64,000 nt of DNA, taken from NCBI GenBank assembly GCA_965649765.1, contig OZ287759.1, positions 6,882,001 through 6,946,000 of the forward strand, in the 5' to 3' direction. Origin of the DNA: Bispira polyomma. Lineage: Eukaryota. Numbering within the stretch: position 1 is the stretch's first letter; each line of letters opens with the position of its first letter. The notes beneath the pieces are model-generated. The model had not been told where the DNA came from. It ran no database searches and was given only the letters and a program-made list of their open reading frames with translations. The translations under genes were made by a program, and so were the position numbers. Of the stretch, positions 9,721 to 64,000 are shown piece by piece.

Positions 9721-12700
9721 TGCGGGGTAGACCCACAGGGGATAGCGATTTCAGTGCTACCAGTATTTTGTTAAACTTACCTCTGGGGTAATAACCCTTG
9801 AACTCGGCTCTTTAATTGGATAACTCTGTACTAATTAAACCTCAGTTTTCCTGCTCTTCTCTAGATTTACCACTTGCATTATTGAAGTCAAATAGGCAAC
9901 AACACCATCTTTAATATTTTTACTTTTTTAGCTTGTGACATTTTATTTGACATGATCTGTTTTGATATGTATGTGATGATACCAAATAATAGGCTGAACG
10001 GTTCATCTGAATGTGCTTCACACTACTGAAGAATCTATTGCTGTGTTCCAGTGTTTTAACTTACACTTTGAGTATTGCGAATATATTCTGGTTTGATTTT
10101 ATCATACAATCCTAGAAAAGTGTTCCTATACATAATACTCAAATATCACAGCAGCGAGTTCTTTTCTGTGTTATTCAGAGGCAATGGCCCCTAGAAAACT
10201 TTGTGATTGCCACAAATTTGAACGAGTCACGAAAAACCATTTAATGACAACTGTAAAGTGGCTAATAGTTCTGAACCAGCAAATCATGAGCTCTGTGCAT
10301 TAAGTGGTCGTATGACCCAGGTCGAGCAGAAAGTTTATTACAGCAAACATGAAACCCAGGTCATGAAGGAAACTTTGAGTCTGGAGAGTGAAGTACAGTT
10401 CATACAAGAGCAGCAGACATTACCCACTGCTACCCACGCTTGAGACTTCACAAACTGTTTGGGTGAAGCATAAAGTTGCATGGTCACAGAGTTTTATTAT
10501 AGGGGGACAGAATAAATCTAGAGTGTTATATGATTCACTCTCTATGGCGCAATGAGTGTCTGGCTTTGCAAGCATTGCTAGAGAGGAAAGTAATGTAGAC
10601 ACTAAAAACCAAATGTTGGACTATCTTACAGATCTTATAGAGGATTCTCATGATTTTTCTTAGGCCTTGGCTAAGGTCAGTCATGCCGTAGTCATTTGTA
10701 AGATGGAAGAGGGGAAAATCACCTGAGGGATGCCCATAAGCTGTAGAATTAGACAGGCTCACGCCCAAAAGGTTATAACCCAAACTCAAACCACTAGCAA
10801 TTATCAAACCAACCCAGGAAAAGTCATGAGAAATCGAACCCATGCAGATACTTCCAAAAAGGTACTTTCCCCCAGAAACGGGATCACGAAATCAAAAGTT
10901 GTTGCTTATGGTCGTACATGTAGTCAGTGTTTTTAAAATGGACGTTCATACCCACCTCCTGCAAAGGATTGCAGGAAGGATCCAGTAAATAACGAGTAAG
11001 GCATTACAGCAATGCAGTGCCAGTCTATGTATCTTCTAAGCCAGAAACAGTCAATAATTTGGTTGTGTTTAAATCTGTAAACAATCTAATTAATTTCCAA
11101 AGTAGAACTGTGTATAATAGTCCTTGTATTGCTCAGGGCAGTAGACACTGGAGGGCTGAGTTAGCCAAATTCGAAAATAAGTCATATGCAGAAGTTGTGA
11201 AAAAAGTGTATCCTCTAGTAGTGCTGCCAGTAATGTTGTTTGTGTACAAAGTTGTAATGTCAAAGGAACGCACCAAGGCGTCTATTCCCCATGAACATCC
11301 AGAAGTTTGATATATTGAAGTTGACCAAGCAAAACACGACTCAGGGCCCAAAGCAAATTTCAATACACTCACAAAAGCCCCCTATAATTCCTACAATGAC
11401 CACAGAGCCAGTGAGGTTAAAATCCCTCACCAAACATCAACAAACCCAGTTTCACAATGCACAAAGGGTAGTACACAACGGTAACCTGTTTATAACACCT
11501 CTAAGCTCCAACAAATGGTTAGGGTGAAAAAAGGATGGCCACAAAGGTGTTAATAGTTCTGTCATAAAGGTGGTTAATACCCATTCACACCAGGAAGTAC
11601 AATGGGATGTGCCCACCTGCAATTGGTTCACCCTAACAGGTAATACAGATGCCCAAGGCAAATGCAACCAAGGTCAAGGCCCAAAAATACCCTCACGTAG
11701 TACTGTGGGATTCAATGCGGACTTATAGCTCAAACTACAGATAAGTATGGCTTTATTCCCTTGGCTGAACTGTATGTACCAAAACAGATAAACACTTAAA
11801 GTCGGACATGTCACTGTTGAAATTACACAGTGTTATCAAAAACCAGAATTGCCCAAATTATTACCAAATCTCTATATTTCTCCCTTTATGACCAGGTAAA
11901 ACCTAGAACTGTGCAGATATAGTTCCTTTTATTTATGTAATTTCATGTTACTACACTTTTGTCTGCCATTCGGATTTTGCCATGGAAGCACAATCTTTCA
12001 GCAATTGGGCGACGCTGTCAGATATATCATGAAACGTCAGGGACATAACGTCACCAATTATATCAACAACGTAATCGAATATGTGATGTCACAGAGAGTA
12101 AACATTCATTTGACACTTTGCACAAATTACTTCAGAAAATACGTTTTACAATTAGAAAAAACTCATCCGAGCACCACGGTTCTTTACCTTGGAGTCTAAG
12201 TATGAACACAATGGACTTAGCAGTCTCACTGCCAGAAGAAAAACAGAAGTGCAAGACTGTTACTACAAAAACCGTTGTAAAAAACGTGAATTACAGGTCT
12301 CACAGGTGTTTCTAAACCGAATGTTGGACTACTATGAGAAGTGGGTGCCACTCAAAAAATACAACTTTATCCTGAATTCCATAAGGACGTTAATTGGTTT
12401 AGAAAATTCTTACCTAAATTCAATGGCAAAACTTTCTTCGAGTACAAACCTACTACAGGCTATATACAATTAGACACCTGCCTTCAAGATATAGGAGGTT
12501 GATGTAATTGACACCAAAGTTAGGAACAATTATGCTCAAATACTGAGGTGCTTAGGGCTTCACTAATCAAACATTTGCTTCCACACTTTCCGACATTGCC
12601 AGGTGTTACATTTGCATTTAATAGTAATGTTCCAAATTCAAGACATCCAAAGTTATGGCACCTGGACGTTGGAGTGTTTGTCGAAGTATATTGTTCAGGA

Positions 12701-23266: not shown

Positions 23267-23473
23267 TTTGGGCATAAGGTCACCTCAGCTAAAGGTGAAC
23301 AGTCACCTTAAGCTGAATTTGAGGTCACCCTATCTTGATTTTAAGATAGTGAGTTTTAGGTTAGGGTGACCTTCAGTAAAATAGTTTTCACCAATTTTGA
23401 AAATGTTGAGGTTAAGTCCTTCTTGAAGTATTAGGGCAATCTACTGAATTCTAGAGGTGGCCTTATGCCCAAA
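23267..23473. repeat. 3' inverted-repeat-bounded palindromic array of host copy
   Basis: tttgggcataaggtcacctc (23267-23286) / gaggtggccttatgcccaaa (23454-23473). RGGTSACCY-like motifs at 23277, 23300, 23322, 23364, 23385, 23409, 23434, 23455. Confidence 0.9.
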
Positions 23474-23569: not shown

Positions 23570-24300
23570 CTAGGTAGTTAGTAGTTAGCCAAATGCAGTC
23601 CGACGTCCAGGTGCCATGCCTTTGTATGTCCTGTATGTGGACATTATTATTGAAGGCAAACGTGGCCCCTGAACATCGGAATTCGTCAATGGTCAAACCG
23701 AATTAGGCTAAACCCAGGATTTGCAATGTGTTTTTCAAATGATAATGCACTGGAATATCCATCAGGGGAATCCAACCCTGATCCAATTTATATTGAAACA
23801 GAAGCAAATTTTTGCCAGCTGGTGTTATACTCATATTTTGCAAGGCTTTGACTGAGCAAAGCATTGAATCAGGTATGGCAGGTACAGTAAATAATTTGAT
23901 TGCGTCGTTTGTTTGCAACGTTTTGAACCACTTGACCATTATTACTGCGTATCCAGGTTTGAACACGATATCAGCTCTGGCTAACTGCTCTAAAGGCAAA
24001 AATGTACTTGCTGAGTCAGGGCAAAGGTTAGACATCTTTAGAAAACTAAAGAAACTGGTCAGGTATACTGCTTTGGACACTTGGCCTATACACGTCAGGT
24101 CACATTTTGGTTACCAATTCTTTAAGAAGGGGGATGTCAAACAAACATTTTTTATTTTACTTGCAGATGTCTATCAGGAGAGCTCTGTTATAATAAGCAA
24201 TTTTTGGATCGGTAAAAGCCTCCACATTAATGATAAACAATATACATTGGGCCTCAATAGCCGACAAATGATTAGCAACTTGAGAGACTGAGATAGCATT
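23570..24300 (-). pseudogene. Tyrosine recombinase of host copy (decayed)
   Basis: KAVYLTSFFSFLKMSNLCP..VKWFKTLQ; downstream FRCSGATFAFNNNV..RHGTWTSDC; collinear with 30331-30969. Confidence 0.9.
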
Positions 24301-24359
24301 ATGCCCCAAAAAATATGACAGTAATAATAACACAGTAATTTCTGGTGTAAGTTGCTAAA

Positions 24360-25950
24360 ATGGGGTGCCTGATTTTGCTACTTTGCAAGACACTTACCAC
24401 AGCTTGGTTATCACACCAAACCTTTTGGTCCCTGCCATGTTTTGGTCCTCAATTTTACCCAGACTACAATGTTTACAATTTCCAAATAAGTAATGTTGTC
24501 ATTTTGCATGTGACTTCATATTTTGATTTCATATACTTGATTTGCAAGGATACCTCCCATACCTTTGAGGGAGGCATCCAGTTCGATTGGAGCAGTTACA
24601 GGCTTATGGTCAAAGAAGGACATCCAAACAAATTGTTCTATGAATGTATGGAACCAATTTAAGTCACGTCTTAACTCAGGGGTTACTTTAAAATGAGTTT
24701 TGCTGTGATTGTTTCTAAGCAGCTCTAGCATCCGGTTTAGAAAAATACATGCATACTTAATGTGTTTGGCTTTGTACAGTAGCTTTCCTAGCAAATATTG
24801 TAACTTGTAACATTTTGTACAATGGGTTTTTATCTCCCAGTTTCTGCACAGAGCTTTGATTTCTTGCAATTTTTTACTTGGCTTGGATGTTGTGGAATTT
24901 ACTGTGTCAATAATAATAATAATACCTAAGCACACAACTTCCATGCCAGGGGGTATCAACGTTTTCTTACTTACAGTAAGACCAAGTTTGTCAAGCACCT
25001 GTTGCAATCTGTCATATGACATGTTTATTTTGCCCGGTAGCAGGACACATAAAAAATTGTCTATAAAATTTTTAATAATGTGGCCCTCTGACCTCATCTA
25101 ACTGCGTCCGAGAGACGTTGAAATATCGTGGATCCCTTTTGATACCCGAAGGGGAGCGATTCATCTATGTAATATGACTTCTGCTTTAGTCCCAAGAGGT
25201 CGACATCACCAGGGCCAATCGAGACGTGACAGAACGCCCTGCTGATGTGAACCTTGTATATAAGGCAACCTTCCCGAATTTTACGACTTCCTGTGTTAAA
25301 CTGTCTATTGACGGATAAGATGATAGAAATTCTGTTCCACGTTGGGGGAACTACTGCATTTATGGAAGCCCCTCGGGGCCAGCTGAGATCAACTATGACT
25401 CTTCTAGTAACTGAACTAGACTTGTCCCTAATCATAAGGGGAGAGAAGTGTAAATTTTTAATTGGTGACTCTAAGAAAGGGCCTGGCATGGCTCCATATT
25501 TACATTTGTCTTGCATATAAGTGTCCACATGGTCGGGCCATTCATTTGCCGACTTGTAATTATCACCATTCGATTCTATATCACTACTGCATTTGAAATC
25601 TAGTGAAAATCCATACTCAATAAACAGGGGCAGTTGCCAGTCCCAGTAAGCATGCAAGTATTTCCTCCAGGTTTTTTCATGCAGTTGTGAATGCACTGGT
25701 ATCTGCAAGCCACAATAATTGTGACGACCGTCCTATCTAAGTACTGGATGCACTACGAGTTTACTTAAGTATTGTTTTGTATTACTATCAAGTACTACCT
25801 CGCCTAAACTAAAGAGGGGGATTAACCCAAACTGAATCGCTCTGTGCTTGCCATTGATGGATGATTTTATTATCTTTGGCTTTTATTAGCAATTCGCTTT
25901 TGTTTTGTTTAATCTTGAACTCCCCAGAATACTTGTCCTCGGCCACAATG
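24360..25950 (-). pseudogene. RT-RNase H of host copy (decayed)
   Basis: RRVIVDLSWP, LPFGYQKGSTIFQRLSDAVR, FIDNFL (decayed YLDD), ELDASLKGMGG, WCDNQAVV. Confidence 0.9.
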
Positions 25951-26242
25951 CATTCTATGCTTTTATGCTCATTGTAACCCCAAGTTTCCTTTCTCTTTTG
26001 TTAGGCTTTCATAGCGACGGGGTTGGGGGCTGTTACTGCCTGACCCCTCATCACTATTTTCAAACATATTTCACCAATTAGGGGGCAAACCCTATTTTGA
26101 ATAGATGTGCCTCCCTTTTTAGTCATTGTTAGTTTGTCAGTGTTAGTTTTTTTTCTAAACAATGTAAGGCAGGGCCCCAGCTCTGGCGCTCTCAGTTCTG
26201 GGGGACCAGTCTTAGCCTTCACGCTTCAGTGCTTGCGGGCTG

Positions 26243-26274
26243 TATATAAGGCAGCTTCAGTCAAACGTCCCGCC
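26243..26274 (+). promoter_or_regulatory. Internal promoter-like block: TATATAA plus CCCGCC
   Basis: Same TATA..cccgcc spacing in the host copy (32508-32475, minus). cccgcc also at ~13225 and ~5700 (minus). Confidence 0.65.
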
Positions 26275-26400
26275 ATTTATAACAATAGTGTTCACAGAAT
26301 AACAACTTTGGAACGGACATCTTGGAAATTCAAGTTGATGTTGCAGATTTTCTTTCTGTTTTTAGTCTTTTAGTGTATTTTATCAGTTTTAAACTTTACA

Positions 26401-27425
26401 ATGCCTCCCGTGTATCATTGTTCGAGGTGTCAAGAGAAGCATGAGAGGCCGGTTGGCAATGCTTGTACTCTGGAAGCCGTGTCTGTGGTAGCCACTTCTA
26501 GCGCTGTCTCTGCTGAGGATTCATCCACTCTCCCTTCGAATTCGGGTTCAGATAATGTTTCTAGTCAAATTTTACTGCAACTGCAGTCCATGGCCCAGAT
26601 GATGGAACGCATGGACCAAAGAGTTCAGCAGATGGAGGCAGCGCTGGCGGCGGACGTCCATAACAAGAATCAGGCTAGTATTGTTTCAAATTCTGTTGTT
26701 AACAGTAGTTCTGTGAGCACCGATACCAGTGAAGTTTTATCCACTGAAACTGTAGTTCCGAATATAGACTTTTTACGGAAGAACAGTCAATTCAAAGCCA
26801 GGTTGAATTAAGGCTGGCGGAGTTAAAACAGCTAAATGAAAACCCACAGCAAGGTAAACTAAAGTCACAAAGGGGAGGGGGCATTGATATATTGGTCAAG
26901 TGCGTCGTAGAATGGCCCCAAAACCACGTCTTGACGGGTAGTTGTAAATCAAGGCCCACATATGATGACTTATCAGTCAACCAATGGGTATGTGGTTTTA
27001 CGCGCATTATCCAGGAAGAAAAGTCGAACGAGATTAGGGAAATTATGCTAGATTATATGGCTAATCTGATGGAAGATGCAGAGGATTTCTCTTGGGAGTT
27101 GGCAAAAGCTTGCCATGCGGTGGTGCTTACCCACATGGAAATGGGGAAGGTTAAATGGTCAGAGGTCGAGAAGCTTGACAGATTCAGAAGGGCTCATGCC
27201 CAGAGACATATTGCTAGCAATCATTCTGGTAGTAATAATCGTGGTTCGAATAAAACACAGGCCTCGGGTAAGCAGTCCACAGCGAACTGTAAGTTCTTCC
27301 AGGATGGTACGTGTAAGTTTCCCAACAGTCACAAAACGGGCAATACCTACTTCAGGCACGTTTGCGAAACCTGTGGGGGGTCACACAAATCCACTGCATG
27401 TAGCAAGAAGAGTCTAAAAAACTGA
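26401..27425 (+). pseudogene. Gag-like protein (one frameshift)
   Basis: ORFs 26401-26811 and 26892-27425 join after a 1 nt correction. N-terminal CxxC..H..C, coiled coil, C-terminal CKFFQDGTCKFPNSH and HVCETCGGSHKSTAC zinc knuckles. Confidence 0.88.
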
Positions 27426-27449
27426 GGGGCCACTGCAATTCTGCAGTGG
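27416..27449 (+). promoter_or_regulatory. Putative -1 programmed ribosomal frameshift signal (A AAA AAC plus hairpin)
   Basis: cta aaa aac tga in the gag frame, 7 nt spacer, perfect 8 bp stem ccactgca-attc-tgcagtgg; the -1 frame is open into ORF 27446. Confidence 0.75.
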
Positions 27450-29945
27450 AAAATAGCAAAGACAAAATTTTTTCCAGAACTTTTTATAACTCAGAATTTT
27501 GTAATTTGCAGTTATTTGATAAAGACGTAAGGGGTAAAATGCTCACTTACAATAAAGGTAAACGTGCATGCTGTTCATACAGCGACGCATTACAAAATGT
27601 AAATAGCACAAACAAACAGGTCGTTGTAAATAAAGGTAAAAGTGTCAAAATGTTCAGTGGGCGACTGGGGGATGCACGTGCAGCTGTGGATTTGACACGA
27701 GCACACAGCCAGACACCCTCAAACGCCAACAAAACCTTGGGTGTAAGACCTGTACATAAGGGTCGTCTTTACTTTGGCCCAGCCACGTGAAACGAACAAA
27801 AGGCCTGTGAGCGGGGGCAAAGTAAGCACACCAAGGAAACAATGCTTGGACGTACCAAGCCTGTTATTGAATGTCTCCCATATAAAGCACCAGTCAATAA
27901 TAGTGTCCACCGAGATGCCTTGTGGCATAACAGATTTCAACCCCTCTACCAAACCATTGTTGAACTCAACAATGGGGAGGTCGAGGATAATGTGAACACA
28001 AACGAGAGTGTTAGTGACAAGCCACAACAAGGTGTGAAAAAACAAAGGCGGTTGATTAAACACAATGCTGGGAATCAGGGTAATGACAGAAATGTCAACA
28101 CAAATCCAACATATCACTCAGTTGCCCCTTCAGACAAGTACACTTTGGGGCTTAAGCAAAAACGCAAGAAAGGAGAGTTGCTAACTAAAGCCCGGAGCGA
28201 TGACATGTACAAGGCGTGGCATGAGCAGAATGACGTCGACTATGGATTCATTCCACTTAACACTTTAGGAGGGAAAATTTGGGATAGGGGGGGCGAAAAA
28301 TCATGGCCTAAATACCTTCCAAATGCATGCTAAATTAAGAGCTGACGGCAGACACAATTATAAGGGTCTCCAACTTGTGGTCGAATCGCAATTAAATGCC
28401 GACAAATGGCAAGATTACCTCGCTAAGTATTGGGACTGGCAACTGCCCCTGCTTGTTAAGTACGGTTTCCCGTTAGACATATGTCGCGCTAAAGTCAGTC
28501 AGTCGGACAATTGTAATCATAGTTCGGCGGAAACCTTCCCTGAACATGTGGAGCCGTATCTCAAGGAGGAGTGTAACTTTGGGGCTATATTGGGCCCCTT
28601 TAAGGACCCCCCTATTAGGGACTTGCATTGTTCGCCGATGATGACACGGGAGAAGTCCACCTCCGCTAATAGGAGAGTGATAGTCGATTTGAGTTGGCCA
28701 CATGGTCAGTCGGGTAACGCAGGTGCTTCGGCTAACTCCTACCTTGACACTGATTTTATTCTATCATATCCTTCCATTGATAACATCACTACTGAAGTAA
28801 CCAGATTGGGTAGAGGATGTCATATCTATAAGATTGACGTAAGTAGGGCCTTTAGGCACGTTCCCATAGACCCGGGTGACATCGATCTCCTTGGCCTAAA
28901 ATGGAAAGAATTCTACGTCGATAAATGTCTGCCCTTCGGGTATCAGAATGGTAGTACCATTTTTCAGCGTCTTTCGGACGCGGTAAGATTTATAATGAAG
29001 GCGGACGGATACAAAGTGCACAACTATTTAGACGATTTTTTGACCGTATCGTTGCCAAGTAAAATAACAGCCAGTTACGAACGTCTTCAGGTCTTGCTCA
29101 AGGAGCTTGGCCTCACGGTCAGTCAGAAGAAGTTGGTTCCTCCCAGCACACGGGTAATATGCCTGGGCATACTAATAGATACTGAAAATTATACCACCTC
29201 TATCCCGGACGAAAAAATGCAGGAAATCACGGCCAAGTGCGACATGTGGCAAGGCAAAGAATTCTGTACTAAAAAGGAATTACAGTCTTTATTGGGCTCC
29301 CTCTTGTATGTAGCCAAATGCATTAAATATGCTAGAGTCTTTTTGAACCGCATGTTGCAATTCCTCAGAGACAATTATAGCAAAAGTCGGTTGATAGTCA
29401 CTGAGGACTTCAACAGGGATTTAAATTGGTTTACAACCTTCATGAGGCATTTCAATGGCATGTCTTTTTTCTCGCATAAGGCTACCCATGCACAGGTAGA
29501 ATTAGATTCATGTCTAACCGGTATGGGAGGCATCTGTGGCAATGACGTGTACAAACTTAAAGTCCCCTCACACATGACCAGTGACAACATAGCGTCGCTT
29601 GAAATGATCAACATACTCGTTGCCCTTAAGCTATGGTCCAACGTGTGGCAAGGCAAAAAAGTTCTGTTCAAATGAGACAATCAGGCAGTGGTTAGTGTCA
29701 TGGAAACCGGGCGTACTCAAGATCCTGTTTTGGCTGCCTACATCAGAAACATTTACATGTGGGCTAGCAAATTTGACATAGACATAAGAGTTATTCATAT
29801 TTTGGGGGTTAAGAACAAGGTTGCAGACCTTCTCTCACGTTGGGATAAAGTGAATAATAATGAAAACCTACTTGCTCAATGGGCGGGGCCGGTTAACTGG
29901 TTGCACACAGATGCCACCCTCCTAGACATTGACTACACAATTTAA
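27422..29945 (+). pseudogene. Pol: N-terminal extension, reverse transcriptase, RNase H
   Basis: RRVIVDLSWP, KIDVSRAFRH, LPFGYQNGS, HNYLDDFL, ELDSCLTGMGG, LEMINIL, K*DNQAVV, NKVADLLSR. Confidence 0.95.
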
Positions 29946-29982
29946 ACATGTTGTATCTTTCCTGTGGTAATATGTTTCAGGA

Positions 29983-30969
29983 ATGCAGCCGTTGGACTCC
30001 CTATTAACAAATAGAGCCTGCAAGAGACTGCATTTTGCTTTTGCTGAATCAACAGCCAGGGCATATGATGCCATGTTTAGACTGTTCCTGGCTTTTGGAG
30101 CTTTCATGCAATGGCCTTTATATCAGGTGACTGTATTCAGAATTTTGTCATTTTTAGAGTTTCTGACTTTTAATCATATGTCTGCTGCTCAAGTTGCAAA
30201 TCATCTGTCGGCTGTTAAAGCTAAATGCATTCTTTTTCATGTAAATGTGGACTGATTTGCAGATCCACGCTTATCTTATTATAGTAGGGCTCTTGCTATT
30301 AATAAGCCTTTACAAGCCAAACTTAAAACATTGTTTGATATTCCTTTGCTAACTGAATTGGTTGCCAAATGTGACAACACATACATGGGTCAGATCTTTA
30401 AGGCTGTTTATCTGACAAGTTTTTTCAGTTTCTTGAGGCTTTCTAATTTGTGCCCACACTCTGTGGCTGGGTTCTCTCCATTGCAGCATTTGGCCAGAGG
30501 GGATGTGTTGTTTAAGCCTGGGTACATAACTCTTTTAGTGAAATGGTCTAAGACCATGCAGGTGAACAATCAAATTAAACTGTTAAATATTCCAGTCCTG
30601 CGGAACTCATCCCTTTGTCCGGTAGCTGCTCTGAAAAATGTGCTGGCCCTTACCCCTGTTGGCCCTAACATGCCTCTTTTTCAGTATAAGTTGGGTGGTG
30701 CTTGGGTTCCGTTGACGGATACCAGGGTTAGGCGTCACTTGAAGAATGTGCTGCAGCTCCTGGGCTGTGCTAATGCTAACCTTACTTTCCATGTGTTCCG
30801 GCGTTCAGGTGCCACGTTTGCCTTTAACAATAATGTCAACATACAGGACATCCAGCGGCATGGCACCTGGACGTCGGACTGCGTCTGGAGGTACATTACA
30901 GATTCGGCCCAGACGGGGTCCCAGGTCGCTGATTGCTTCAAGGGTGCGCTTCAGCCTACTTCTAGGTAA
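29983..30969 (+). pseudogene. Tyrosine recombinase (one in-frame TGA)
   Basis: ORFs 29983 and 30331 share a frame. Catalytic R (FLRLSNL), K (WSKT), HxxR (HVFRRSGAT), HGTWTSD, Y (WRYI). Confidence 0.95.
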
Positions 30970-31078
30970 CTCTGGTGTTTGGTGGTTTGACGTCTATAGG
31001 TCACCTGTGCAAAAAGAATATATAAATGTTATGGTATAATAAACATAAATTTGGACAGTTCACAACCCCCTTGTCCTT

Positions 31079-31469
31079 GGGCATAAGGTCACCTTATATC
31101 TCGGTACATTATGTACTCTTACATAATTTATCTTCCAATCACTTTGCAACCTCCATAGTATGCTTTAAATCAACCTTAAACTCAAGGTAGGGCCAACAGT
31201 TCGGGCCCATTTACTTCCATACTGACTTGAACTCAAGGTATGTTCAGAATGAAGTTCAAATTTAAGTCGGGCTCACTAACGGTGCCCCTTCATTGGCATA
31301 CTCTTGACACATTGGTTGCTAGTCTTAAACTCAACTTAGGGCCATCGTTAGGCCCCCTCAAAATTCTTCTTGAAGGTGACCTTAAGTCTACCTTATTGTT
31401 ATATAAAGAATTTAGACTGACTTTACGTTCACCTTAAACTTTAACTCACTGTAAGGTGACCTTATGCCC
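31079..31469. repeat. 3' inverted-repeat-bounded array of the near-intact copy
   Basis: Perfect 18 bp IR gggcataaggtcacctta (31079-31096) / taaggtgaccttatgccc (31452-31469). Internal accttaaactcaaggt-type motifs and three gggc..gccc mini-hairpins. Confidence 0.92.
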
Positions 31470-32797
31470 CTCAACTATAATCCGAAACTGTACATACTAT
31501 ACCTGTAGAACTAACCATGCTAGTGATTAATAAATATTTACCCGCAAGTGTTTTTCTGTGTTGCTAAAGGAATTAGAAAATTATTAAGGTTTCTATTACT
31601 AACTTTCCCTTGGCCCACGGGGAACTGTAGCTGTCTCCCTTTGTTTCAGTGTTTGTTCACCAGTGCTATTTCGTTTAAAATTGTTGTCAACTTTTGGTGG
31701 CTTGGTTTTGTTTTGTTTCCCCCTTTTAATAATTCTACCCACCGTTGTTTGAGGTTCTGTTTTCTTGGCATGAGTGTAGTCCAGCATGGCTGCTTTTGTT
31801 TCAATATTTTTCTCTTCCTGAATGATCCTATTGAATCCACAAACCCACTGAACAAGGGTGAGGTCATCATTGAAGGGTTTAGCATTAACGGTCCCTGTTA
31901 AAACATGGTTTTGTGACCAATCTATTGATTTTTTGACACTTCTGAGGTACCCCCACGTTAGGATTTTACCATACCTTGTGAGGGATTCTTAGTGATTTGT
32001 ATAAGTTCAATGAGCCTTTGCTCGACCTGAGTCTGAATCTCAACATTATGTTTCAGAAAATCAACATTTGGGACAATGCTGGTTTCACTACTCTTATGTG
32101 ATACTGGCCTGATCCTTTGAGGTGTTTCCTGGCAACACCGCCTCAATGACTTGCACCAGCTTGTCCATTTTTTCCATCATCTGGGTAATGGTCAATAATT
32201 GTGTTAATATTACTTATGGGATCTTACCATCCGGAGTAGAACTCATCAGGGTGCTGTCTCTCGGGTCAACGTCACTGGACAGGTCGAGTAATACTGGACA
32301 ATTCGGACTCAGGTCTTTGATGTCTTTGCAAACATTTACTACAATGTACCAGCTTCACTCGAGGCATAACGAGATATTTTTTATGTTAACGTTGTAAAAT
32401 AAAATAAGTTTAAAATCAAATTCTAGTTGCACACCTTTTAATATTTGTTAACCTGTACACTCCCCGACAAGAATGGCGGGAAAATTATGAAGGGGGCGTC
32501 CTTTTATACTTGTGTACAAACTCCCCCCCCCCCCCCCCTCCAGATTACTAGTCTGGTAACCTGGTACTGAGACCAGTATCGCCCAGACGCTACCTTTCAA
32601 TATTGTGATCACTGCGACTCCTAATGGTCCCATTGAATCTGGCCGTCGTGATATTACCTAAGTTGTAGAAAGTGACTAAATTAAATTTAAAAGCATACCC
32701 AATTGAAACAGGCCCTTCTGTGTACCCAGCAGTAGTAGATCAACTAAAACCATTAGACCACACGGACGTTGGCATAATACATTCACTGACACCTAAC

Positions 32798-52030: not shown

Positions 52031-52860
52031 CTCTTGATTCTTCTTATCCATGATACTTTCAATGCTTGAATAAAATGATGTATGTTGACCATTTTTAGGC
52101 CGCCATCAATATAATTTTTGCATATTGTATTTCTTTTGATATTGTCCAGTTTTTTGTTCCATAGAAATTGAAAAAATATTTTGTTGATTTCCCCTACAAA
52201 ACTTTCTGGCGTTGGTAAAGAGGTAAAAAGATGAATAAATTTGGACAACAAAGTTGTTTTTATCACTGTTATTTTTCCTAATGGAGTGAGTTTTCGGCTT
52301 TGCCATTTTTGGATATTTTTTTAAATTGTTTCTGTAGCTTTTTCATAATTTTTTTCTGGCATAGTACTCAAATTTACTGAAAATTCTATTCCTAATAATG
52401 TAAATTCAGTTTTACCCCAATCCAGTGTTTCACAGATTATAAGTTTTTCTTTTGAATATCTTTTCCTACCTATCCATATTCATTTTTGTCTTTTCCTTAT
52501 TCATTTTCAGCCCTGAGAAGTTACCAAAAATCTCAATTGTATTTAACACTGATTGTAGAGAGTGCTGGCTTCCATCTAAGATTAAAGTGGTGTCATCCGC
52601 AAACTGTGTTAGTTTCAGTTTGGTAGAATTCAGATAAAATCCTACAATATTAGGGTTAATTTTGACTAACATAGAGAGAATTTCTGCCCCTATCAAAAAC
52701 AAATATGGAGAAAGTGGGTCCCCTTGTCTGCAACCCCTTTGGATTGCTATTTCTTGTGATAAAAAAGCACACTGTAAAACATAGGCTTTAATATCAGTGT
52801 TAAACATTTGTACCCATTTGATAAAATGGTATTTATTTATGAAACCAAAGTTATGAAAGA
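52030..52860 (-). mobile_element. L1/Tx1-clade LINE RT fragment
   Basis: RGCRQGDPLSPYLF, QFADDTTL, FSGLKMNKEKT, GGLKMVNI. Confidence 0.9.
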
Positions 52861-55800
52861 GTGCGTTATCGCGACTTACAAGAAATGACAAAACGCTTAC
52901 ATATATATCTAATATATATTCGCAAATCCATGCTTTTCCTTGTATATCTATCTCCCGACACATGTCCGTCGAAGCATAAAAAGATATAAGAAAAAATGTG
53001 GTAATTACTAGACCAAATTACTAACGTATTTAACAAACAAATAAAATTAAAAAAATAGATATATTATAAAATGATTCTCGTTCTAAGTACCAAACAATCT
53101 TTTTTCACTGTGTAATCAAGATTCTATCATAATAAAAATCAATCAAATAAATGCATTTGAGCTTTGACCTACTTCAAGGTCACATGACAGCGAATTATCA
53201 AGGAAAGCATTCATTGTAATAAATAGCATGGACATTGGAAATACAATCTATATCCATAATAAATACTTCAGCAGTACAATAATCCGTTAAAACAAGTGAA
53301 ATAACAGGTCTATCAATATTCACTTGTTGTGTACTTTAAGTTCACTGTTCGGCTCGAAGTGTGAGAACAATACTCAAACCACTGATATAAAAATGACTAC
53401 ACCTCCACATGATTTTAGGTATGCAACTTTTGATGAAATTGGTGAAAGTAGACCAACCGGCACTTTTATATTGACATTGCCATGTCAGATTTTTGGAATG
53501 TTTATCAGAGTGGGTTAATTTCAAAATGTGTTTCGGCTGCCGCGATAGGGAAACCCACCTTCTCAACAATATCTATTTTCATATTATCCAAACATATTCT
53601 ATTGTGTTTCCTCTACTTTTTCAAGGAGGAGCATTTATCTCATCAAAGAACACAAAGCTACTGCTTATATACTGCAGTTCCACATTGTTGAATTACATAT
53701 GTGTACCAACTAATTTAATTTACTGTATCAACTAACCTTTTATATCTTGCCCTTCTCGGAATCCAGATAATGAACAATCAGACTGTATAAGGATAGATAG
53801 TTTGACTGGGAAATGTTTTGTGTAATTTAATCTTATAGAAATGGATTTTATAAACCAACTTAAGTAAAAACAGCTGAAGTAAAACTACAAAGAAACTTCC
53901 AACCGGCAAAATATTTAAGGTAGAAAGATCCCCATCACATATGACCTTGTAGCAATTTCAATTTACCATGATGTAGAACCGTTTAGACATAGTGTTGGGC
54001 AAGTATCAGCATGCATAGATATAATGCCTACAGATATTCAATTAATAATCCACAGATGGATGCTGGCCTGTATCTGTGCCTCCACTTGATCCTGGTGTTA
54101 CTTGGAGTCTCGGCTGTGGAATGTGACACTAAAAATTCAGGTAATTTTACTTACACCTCTGCATCTTTTTGTATGAGCATTCAACAGAAATAAAATAGTT
54201 CTATTCTTAAACGTTTCAAATATTTGCCCGAATTTGAGCCCAGTTTTGACAAATATATATATCTAAAATCTAAATTACTTTTGGGTTTACTTTAGACTTA
54301 AATGAAATTTAATACAATAACGACAGGAATTGCAGCCAGAAAGAAAGTTGTATCCAAATGATGTGATATCCAGAGAAAAAATAAAGATATAGACAGAGCT
54401 ATTTTGATGATTTTGTTTGTTTCTATTGTATTCACATTCATACAAATCGCATTTATCTATTGTTAGCACTAATCAACTTTTCCATTACTTGCCAAGTATA
54501 GTCAACCAGAAACTGGGTTTGCTCTAACTGAACACACTAGCTTGAGGATGACACCATTCATCAATGTCCCTAAGATTCTCTTTAATGACAACTTTACATG
54601 TACTAATTAGAATCCCAAGTCCCAATCTGAATTTAAACAGGCACATTTGCCTGAAATGTGATTTATTAGTTCTTTAAAACCTGGTCTCATTCAGACTGAC
54701 ATCTTTAAACATACCTTGCATCAGTTTTGTGGCTTTGTCCACATATACACCACCAGATCACCCCCCCCCCCCCCGCCCACCATCCCCCCAAAATCACCTC
54801 AACCATACTGCAACCAAATAGAGGTATGTACAAAACGAAACTGCAAAAGTGACACTTACCAGCAAGAACACCCACTCAGGAAAAACAAAGACATAACAAA
54901 CAATAACAAATACCCGTTGATACCAACAAATAGTCACTAACTGTTACTAATTAATACAAATGTAAAAACAAACCGACATAATTTAATGCTTTCGTGATGG
55001 TGCGACTAATCCTTACAGATATCAACGAAGAGTTCCAAAGTGGGACTAATATTCACAGATATCAACAAAGAGTTCTGAAGTGCTACTAATATCTGAAGTT
55101 TGAAACGTACAGTCACCGAACAATACAAAGATGTTTGTGCTGTGTTCGTAACGTCCATTCGTTCATATGTGATCAAAGTATGTTTTGATAAAGTATTAAA
55201 ACTCATTTTACACAATTTTATTTCATTCAATACCTGCAGTATATATTGTCTTTACACTTAAGGTTATTGTATCACCGGTGTGATGGCGGAATGTACTGTG
55301 GTCAATGAAGGCATGAATTAATTAGTATATATTTACAGGAGAGTATGATGATATAATTCTGGATGGAGGGGTGGCTGGTGTCATGGTATCACGTACTTAG
55401 GTCGTACTTAGGACACACGGTGGAGTTAGGCCCTCAGTGGGTGCACTTTGTGAAGGAACATACATCAAACCCACTGTAAGTGTGAAACACTGTCATATGA
55501 TGCAGGAAAACACAGCAACGCCCAAGTTATATGTATTTACCAATCAAGAATGTAACATTATGGTTATTAAACAATCTAAGAAAATATCTATATATATACT
55601 ATTTACAGCTTAAGGGGAGTTAAGGCTCAACATTAAAGTAGAATGTGTTTACATTTTATATATTGTTTCACATACAAGACACACCATAACATAAAACAAC
55701 ATTTCAGCCCATATGTCATGCGGGATACATTACACAGCAAAAAAATGGTGTTAAACATTGTGATAATACATACAATTGGTCAGAGAACATGGGATTCAAA

Positions 55801-63680: not shown

Positions 63681-64000
63681 TGCGGGGTAGACCCGTAGCG
63701 GATAGCTAGTTCAGTGCAACTACTATTTTGTTAAACATATCAAACTAAATTTCTAATTCATCGTTTGTTTTCAATTTTTCAGTTTTTCGTTTGGGCCGAG
63801 GTACTTTGGGCCGAGGTAGCTTTACAAAATGAAATCACCCGCGCATTCCGTCACATTAAGATAGACCCGGCTGATTATATTCTACTAGACCTAAAACTGT
63901 ATAAATACTACGTAGACTCATCTGTGCCATCTTTCAGCGACTAAGTGACGCCGTCAGATACATCATGAAAAAGCGGGGTTATTACGTCACAGTGCAATGA
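63681..64000 (+). mobile_element. Further decayed copy of the YR retrotransposon family, running off the window
   Basis: 5' terminus tgcggggtagaccc..ttcagtgc..tattttgttaaac as at 9721; RT remnant IDPADYILL..AIFQRLSDAVRYIMKK. Confidence 0.85.

What the first reader, a model, noticed from the sequence alone, without database searches (positions are those of the whole stretch)
27416..27449. Retrovirus-style -1 frameshift signal at the gag/pol junction, conserved in a second copy
Seen: A AAA AAC in the gag frame just before TGA, a 7 nt spacer, then an 8 bp perfect hairpin; the -1 frame reads LRGHCNSAVENSKDK into pol. Element 1 has the decayed equivalent aaataac-gagtaa-ggcattaca-gcaa-tgcagtgcc (10987-11021), with different outer pairs but the same fold. 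Known: X XXY YYZ plus a stem is the canonical -1 PRF signal. I do not recall it being well documented for YR retrotransposons.
Basis: partly seen in the sequence, partly recalled or inferred. Interest (0 to 1): 0.7.

Follow-up and report, generated by a model that had tools for sequence, protein, structure and literature searches.

The report
Conserved ribosome slip in Ngaro retrotransposons
A large family of jumping genes in this genome keeps the same slippery sequence and small hairpin at the end of its structural gene, so ribosomes likely slip back one base there to make the copying enzyme, a trick known from retroviruses but untested in this kind of element.

Summary
The signal is real: A AAA AAC (27416-27422) in the gag frame, TGA, then an 8-bp hairpin (27430-27449). 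It sits at the gag/pol junction of a dead copy of a Ngaro-like tyrosine-recombinase retrotransposon. The pattern AAAAAAC-N8-CACTGC-N6-GCAGTG occurs 1,188 times in the genome (reversed control 0), and 1,188 of 1,222 matches keep this exact spacing. It spans 40 subfamilies in two groups whose RT/RNase H is only 47-49% identical. Between the groups the gag stop moves one codon and the closing pair flips C-G to G-C, while the heptamer-to-stem distance stays fixed. All 43 copies with a frame open from the junction through the RT motif use the -1 frame, and one group has no conserved start codon. Best reading: programmed -1 frameshifting makes Gag-Pol (0.85, inferred; no RNA or protein data). A sister clade has an in-frame CAA-TAG instead (readthrough candidate). 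The signal is of the canonical retroviral type; I found no paper describing it at a YR-element gag/pol junction, but the key reviews were not readable. The scan earlier noted the Gag-recombinase splice in this genome and readthrough candidates elsewhere, not this frameshift.

The parts
27416..27422 (+). Slippery heptamer A AAA AAC (last two gag codons, Lys-Asn)
   Evidence: exact in 186 of 218 loci with a gag hit
27423..27429 (+). 7-nt spacer holding the gag stop (TGA 27423-27425)
   Evidence: stop is TGA, TAA or TAG, and one codon later in the other group
27430..27449 (+). Hairpin, 8 bp and 4-nt loop here; near-invariant core CACTGC 27431-27436 / GCAGTG 27443-27448
26401..27425 (+). gag-like ORF with C-terminal Cys/His knuckles; one-base break near 26789 in this copy
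27416..29945 (+). pol (N-terminal extension, RT, RNase H) in the -1 frame; broken here at 27788, near 28287 and at 29673
29981..30969 (+). Tyrosine recombinase ORF, preceded by a conserved U-rich YAG acceptor-like site ending at 29980
26851..26859 (+). Conserved phase-1 donor-like site in gag (predicted intron start 26854)
26163..26315 (+). Terminal repeat A1 (153 bp)
   Evidence: repeated as A2 in four full-length relatives
30980..31628 (+). Repeat B1 (649 bp); this copy ends here and lacks A2 and B2
10987..11021 (+). Decayed homologous signal in element 1 (other group: stop one codon later, G-C closing pairs)

Best explanation
This is a conserved slippery heptamer plus hairpin at the gag/pol junction of a Ngaro-like tyrosine-recombinase retrotransposon clade, and it likely makes a minority of ribosomes slip back one base so that RT/RNase H is made as a Gag-Pol fusion. 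Shown: the sequence, its fixed geometry, its conservation, and pol in the -1 frame. Inferred: ribosomes pause at the hairpin with AAA and AAC in the P and A sites, re-pair one base back, bypass the gag stop and translate about 840 further residues (predicted fusion about 1,180 aa; Pfam finds no protease in pol, so it would probably stay uncleaved); most ribosomes stop and make Gag alone. The recombinase is predicted to come from a spliced RNA that removes this signal, so the slip would act on the unspliced RNA only. The window copy itself is dead.
For: (1) 1,188 exact genomic matches, reversed control 0; 1,188 of 1,222 matches over 49 spacer/loop lengths have 8 and 6; relaxing four synonymous positions adds only 95 (1,283). 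(2) Among loci picked by protein only: 104 of 120 (gag query) and 28 of 28 with a gag hit (RT query) carry the motif at 16 or more of 19 bases. (3) The first heptamer base is a gag third-codon position: A in 38 of 40 subfamilies by majority while the amino acid varies; background A at fourfold sites 264 of 1,193, AAA 191 of 325 Lys, AAC 62 of 162 Asn. (4) Closing pair C-G in 102 of 105 and G-C in 51 of 51 exact copies of the two groups, and the stop moves one codon while heptamer-to-stem distance does not; 92.8% of cells pair on the 40-subfamily alignment against 17-49% for slid controls. (5) -1 frame in 43 of 43 copies open through YxDD, from 9 subfamilies; it opens only about 3-9 codons above the heptamer in most subfamilies. 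(6) Stops in the 35 codons after the stem: -1 frame 25, frame 0 158, +1 frame 197 of 202 copies; 18 of 46 loop hexamers hold an out-of-frame stop triplet, none an in-frame one. (7) A protein motif upstream of any conserved Met aligns across both groups, and 9 of 9 group-1 representatives share no Met column in the first 100 residues. (8) Outside assemblies: 25 of 29 gag homologs with a terminal knuckle end in KN or KN+1, 30 of 62 such 50%-cluster representatives end in KN+0-2, and two mutant proteins run on into K-K-x-x-x-H-C-x-x-A-V (P0082, P0217). (9) A AAA AAC is listed among the most shift-prone heptamers for mammalian ribosomes (PMC5009743).
Against: No translation or RNA evidence. The 6-bp core shows no compensatory change; covariation rests on the flanking pairs, and the closing-pair flip is probably one event inherited by a clade. 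The hairpin is modest (-13.5 kcal/mol here) and no pseudoknot is supported. 19 of 22 group-2 representatives have a Met about 40 codons downstream. The stem's 3' arm holds a CAG in the same phase as the gag donor. The 40 representatives in the alignment were chosen for best motif score, which inflates its pairing. 32 of 62 outside representatives do not end in KN. Copies are related, so counts are not independent events.
Confidence: 0.85

Rival explanations
1. Pol is made by splicing: the conserved gag donor (26854) joins the CAG in the stem's 3' arm (27446/27447), giving an in-frame Gag(N)-Pol, with the hairpin damping acceptor use.
For: The AG is in the same phase as the donor and as the YR acceptor; the core is invariant rather than covarying; these elements very likely splice their recombinase.
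Against: The 20 nt before this AG hold 3.7 T on average against 11.0 before the YR acceptor; it passes a simple acceptor rule in 5 of 22 and 2 of 9 representatives while a phase-1 YAG stands at the YR start in 102 of 112 copies; the would-be intronic loop avoids -1-frame stops (0 of 46 against 18 out of frame); the heptamer is unexplained; pol is always -1 to gag while YR is 0, +1 or -1 to pol.
Confidence: 0.06
2. Pol is translated separately, by reinitiation after the gag stop or from an internal start at the Met about 40 codons downstream; the hairpin aids termination or reinitiation.
For: Met conserved in 19 of 22 group-2 representatives; the stop lies next to the hairpin.
Against: Group 1 has no shared Met (first Met at residue 144 in 17 of 28 copies of its largest subfamily); the sequence above the Met is conserved as protein in the -1 frame; the hairpin keeps its distance to the heptamer, not to the stop.
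Confidence: 0.05
3. The palindrome is a DNA- or RNA-level binding site (recombinase, packaging) or just a conserved peptide (His-Cys-x-x-Ala-Val), and the A run only reflects a Lys-Asn tail of Gag.
For: Invariant arms with a fixed 6-nt gap look like a dimer site (resemblance recalled, not tested); the core falls on whole -1-frame codons.
Against: Synonymous positions are fixed in 1,188 of 1,283 matches; the wobble A of the heptamer is kept; a conserved -1-frame peptide above any start codon itself needs the frameshift; it does not say how pol is made.
Confidence: 0.03
4. The hairpin stimulates stop-codon readthrough in frame 0.
For: A sister clade has this layout.
Against: Here frame 0 closes within 35 codons in 158 of 202 copies, never reaches RT (0 of 43), and the stop codon varies.
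Confidence: 0.01

Closest known systems
-1 frameshift signals with A AAA AAC (astroviruses, deltaretrovirus gag-pro, MMTV), PMC3835772 passages
   Same: Same heptamer; stimulator 6-9 nt downstream; simple stem-loops are described for chicken astrovirus and were generally assumed for deltaretroviruses.
   Different: Here in a non-viral YR retrotransposon without a detectable protease; no pseudoknot support; stem core frozen in sequence.
Animal LTR retrotransposons with pol in the -1 frame (28 of 51 surveyed; PMC5009743 passage)
   Same: gag/pol overlap in the -1 frame with a heptamer shift site.
   Different: No LTRs, no DDE integrase; recombinase apparently expressed by splicing.
Ngaro-like retrotransposons (order DIRS); PMC4157794, PMC8547959, PMC9210276, PMC3783388 passages
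   Same: gag, RT/RNase H, YR; A1-ORFs-B1-A2-B2 split direct repeats; no methyltransferase.
   Different: None of the passages read names a gag/pol shift site. The proposal quoted from Poulter and Butler 2015 in PMC13003380 puts a -1 frameshift at the RT/YR overlap; here that junction looks spliced and the signal is at gag/pol. About 750-1,100 bp lie between A2 and B2.

Membership tests
Canonical -1 PRF signal | X XXY YYZ heptamer in the 0 frame | tested here: met
   A AAA AAC in gag frame
Canonical -1 PRF signal | Spacer of about 6-9 nt | tested here: met
   7 nt here; mostly 5-7 nt by folding the representatives, shorter where the stem extends; fixed 8 nt to the core; range from PMC3835772
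Canonical -1 PRF signal | Downstream stem-loop or pseudoknot | tested here: met
   Stem-loop predicted and conserved; pseudoknot not supported
Canonical -1 PRF signal | Downstream ORF in the -1 frame, overlapping the site | tested here: met
   43 of 43 unbroken copies
Canonical -1 PRF signal | Downstream ORF lacks its own start | tested here: inconclusive
   No shared Met in group 1; Met about 40 codons down in 19 of 22 group-2 representatives
Canonical -1 PRF signal | Measured frameshifting that depends on heptamer and stem | not testable with these tools
   needs a reporter or ribosome profiling
Ngaro-like retrotransposon | gag, RT/RNase H and YR ORFs in this order on one strand | tested here: met
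   YR Pfam hit is weak (E 0.0013, below cut-off), HxxR and a downstream Tyr present
Ngaro-like retrotransposon | Split direct repeats A1...B1-A2-B2 downstream of YR | tested here: met
   In 4 of 8 long relatives compared with the window copy and in both other groups; the window copy ends after B1
Ngaro-like retrotransposon | No methyltransferase domain | tested here: met
   Unbroken pol ends after RNase H; Pfam gives only RVT_1 and RVT_3
Ngaro-like retrotransposon | RT phylogeny inside the Ngaro clade | not tested
   No named reference sequences were available from the tools; PMC4157794 warns that structure alone can mislead

The most novel reading that the evidence does not exclude
The frozen 6-bp stem is read by sequence, not only by shape: a protein (Gag's own Cys/His knuckles or a host factor) binds it and sets the frameshift rate, giving feedback control of the Gag to Gag-Pol ratio; and YR retrotransposon clades have switched between -1 frameshifting and UAG readthrough at this junction, as retroviral genera have.
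Probability: 0.15. Interest if true: 0.8.

Novelty: new member of a known kind. Interest (0 to 1): 0.57.

Why it matters
How tyrosine-recombinase retrotransposons make their enzymes is not settled in the papers I could read; the one proposal I found places a frameshift at the RT/recombinase overlap. This gives a 34-nt, directly testable signal at gag/pol, present in over a thousand copies, and with the splice signals a complete predicted scheme: Gag by default, Gag-Pol by slip, Gag(N)-recombinase by splicing. A sister clade with an in-frame stop offers a natural comparison of two recoding routes. It also changes annotation: pol should be modelled from the slip site, not from the first ATG.

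Tried and rejected
RNA evidence: no RNA holder listed; the three runs laid were contigs of unrecorded kind and showed no joint at the predicted splice sites among those displayed, which is no evidence either way. Pseudoknot: loop-to-downstream pairing no better than shuffled partners, p 0.13-0.93, 35 representatives. Alternative heptamers before the same stem: 2 matches, both reverse readings of the palindrome in decayed members, so no subfamily with a swapped heptamer was found by that pattern. Motif in metagenome and viral contigs: 19 and 2 matches, none with gag, pol or YR similarity; treated as chance. A search for a genomic copy already joined at the stem AG was mis-specified by one base and tests nothing. 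Rfam: only a sub-threshold miRNA hit. PDB: no hit for pol. L110 was a false motif call (deletion fusing gag and pol) and was dropped, with L117 and L259 (heptamer deleted), before the 201-of-218 count; it is still inside the 202. Papers not held: Poulter and Butler 2015 and two others (the id was recalled).

Full report
Observation. The heptamer, stop, spacer and hairpin are at the stated coordinates and in the stated frame. Of 484 plus-strand heptamers in the window it alone is followed by a perfect stem of 8 bp or more at 5-9 nt, and the 61-nt region folds better than 200 of 200 shuffles. The element-1 site is also as described.

The element. Pfam gives RT at 28269-29672 and a weak phage-integrase hit at 30256-30966. 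Comparison with eight long relatives sets the ends at 26163 and 31628; four of them continue with a second A and a second B repeat, which gives A1-gag-pol-YR-B1-A2-spacer-B2. An unbroken pol of 845 codons ends after RNase H, with no methyltransferase or protease hit. By the structural criteria in PMC4157794 (passages) this is Ngaro-like; I did not test it by phylogeny. The window copy is dead (breaks near 26789, at 27788, near 28287, at 29673) and sits inside an opposite-strand relative.

Conservation. The window lies in a 1.04-Gb genome. The pattern AAAAAAC-N8-CACTGC-N6-GCAGTG has 1,188 exact matches, the reversed pattern none. Letting the gaps vary over 49 combinations gives 1,222; letting four synonymous positions vary gives 1,283. 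I examined 219 distinct loci; 218 had a gag hit, 201 carry the motif at 16 or more of 19 bases and 156 exactly; most of the rest show deletions at the junction. For loci picked by protein only, the counts are 104 of 120 and 28 of 28. These are the top-scoring places of each search, not a random sample. Clustering 450 nt of upstream gag at 85% gives 40 subfamilies in two groups whose RT/RNase H is 47-49% identical.

Why a frameshift. The first A of the heptamer is a third codon position in gag, yet it is A in 38 of 40 subfamilies under several different amino acids, against 22% A at fourfold sites of the same genes; Lys is AAA and Asn AAC in 39 of 40 each. In group 2 the stop follows the heptamer at once (104 of 105 exact copies), in group 1 one codon later (51 of 51), while the distance to the stem is unchanged and the closing pair flips from C-G to G-C: the stem is placed relative to the heptamer, not the stop. 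On the alignment of 40 representatives (chosen for best motif score) 92.8% of cells pair, three pairs change on both sides, and slid controls reach 17-49%. Every one of 43 copies open from the junction through YxDD uses the -1 frame. That frame begins only a few codons above the heptamer in most subfamilies, avoids stops just below the stem (25 of 202 copies against 158 and 197 in the other frames), and carries a motif shared by both groups above any conserved Met. Loop hexamers hold out-of-frame stops in 18 of 46 cases and in-frame stops in none. Unnamed proteins from other assemblies agree: 25 of 29 and 30 of 62 gag homologs with a terminal knuckle end in Lys-Asn plus at most two residues, and two mutant copies read on into the same -1-frame peptide.

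Against, and rivals. Nothing here measures translation. The six core pairs never covary, which a plain roadblock does not require; double duty as coding sequence may freeze them. Group 2 has a Met about 40 codons down (19 of 22), which keeps separate initiation alive for that group only. Earlier scan notes prompted a test of splicing. A phase-1 donor-like site in gag is kept in all three groups, and a U-rich phase-1 YAG stands at the YR start in 102 of 112 copies, while YR's frame relative to pol varies: YR is likely spliced, as other reports of this scan on this genome already say. The stem's own CAG is in the same phase, but it lacks the U-rich tract (3.7 against 11.0 T in 20 nt), and no acceptor-like site is shared by more than 4 of 12 representatives on the way to RT. 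I give that rival 0.06. No pseudoknot is supported.

A sister clade. A more distant YR clade (gag about 28%, RT 37-42% identical; split direct repeats in L320) has pol in frame with gag behind CAA-TAG in 26 of 30 loci, and six longer copies are open in frame 0 through YIDD. Its downstream structure is weak by folding. It is a readthrough candidate and shows that not all YR elements here use the slip.

Literature. I read passages only (find mode) of PMC3783388, PMC6681497, PMC8547959, PMC3266345, PMC13003380, bioRxiv 2022.06.16.496473, PMC9210276, PMC5009743 (first 300,000 of 449,034 characters held), PMC3835772, PMC7192593 and PMC4157794; no supplements. PMC5009743 lists A AAA AAC among the most shift-prone heptamers and has no mention of DIRS or Ngaro in the held part; PMC3835772 lists the heptamer with 6-9-nt spacers in astroviruses and retroviruses. 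PMC13003380 quotes Poulter and Butler 2015 proposing a frameshift at the RT/YR overlap of Ngaro elements. Seven searches showed no description of a gag/pol shift site in a YR element. That review was not held and I did not look up Goodwin and Poulter 2004; either may already suggest frameshifting for ORF2, so novelty is provisional.

Verdict. A real, strongly conserved signal of the canonical -1 type, most likely making Gag-Pol (0.85). The mechanism is known; the host class and the testable three-way expression scheme are what is new. Interest 0.57.

Noticed in passing
window 26854 and 29980: Conserved phase-1 donor-like site in gag and U-rich acceptor-like site before YR: predicted Gag(N)-YR splice that removes the frameshift signal and pol. 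Already noted by the scan in this genome.
   Followed up: partly
L320, L328, L330, L335 gag end: Sister YR clade with in-frame CAA-TAG between gag and pol: stop-codon readthrough candidate; CTG-N4-CAG/CGG follows at a fixed distance.
   Followed up: partly
window 23589-25973 and 31776-32384, minus strand: The element is inserted inside an opposite-strand relative whose gag and pol it splits.
   Followed up: partly
window 31628; L152, L165, L159: Several copies end exactly after B1 and lack A2 and B2, as expected from B1/B2 recombination; the ends share a TGT triplet.
   Followed up: no
L189, L193 and many places: A young subfamily with an identical 812-codon open pol frame in dozens of places: recent activity.
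   Followed up: no
L110 (G000:C6:51004772): One copy with a small deletion at the junction that fuses gag and pol into a 1,221-codon frame.
   Followed up: partly
window 31077-31472 and 23267-23473: Inverted repeat and short palindromic repeats in the B repeat, shared by the two nested elements.
   Followed up: no
window 26244-26250: TATA-like box inside repeat A1, about 150 nt above the gag ATG.
   Followed up: no
window 52469-53017 (minus) and 63831-63988 (plus): Further RT fragments.
   Followed up: no
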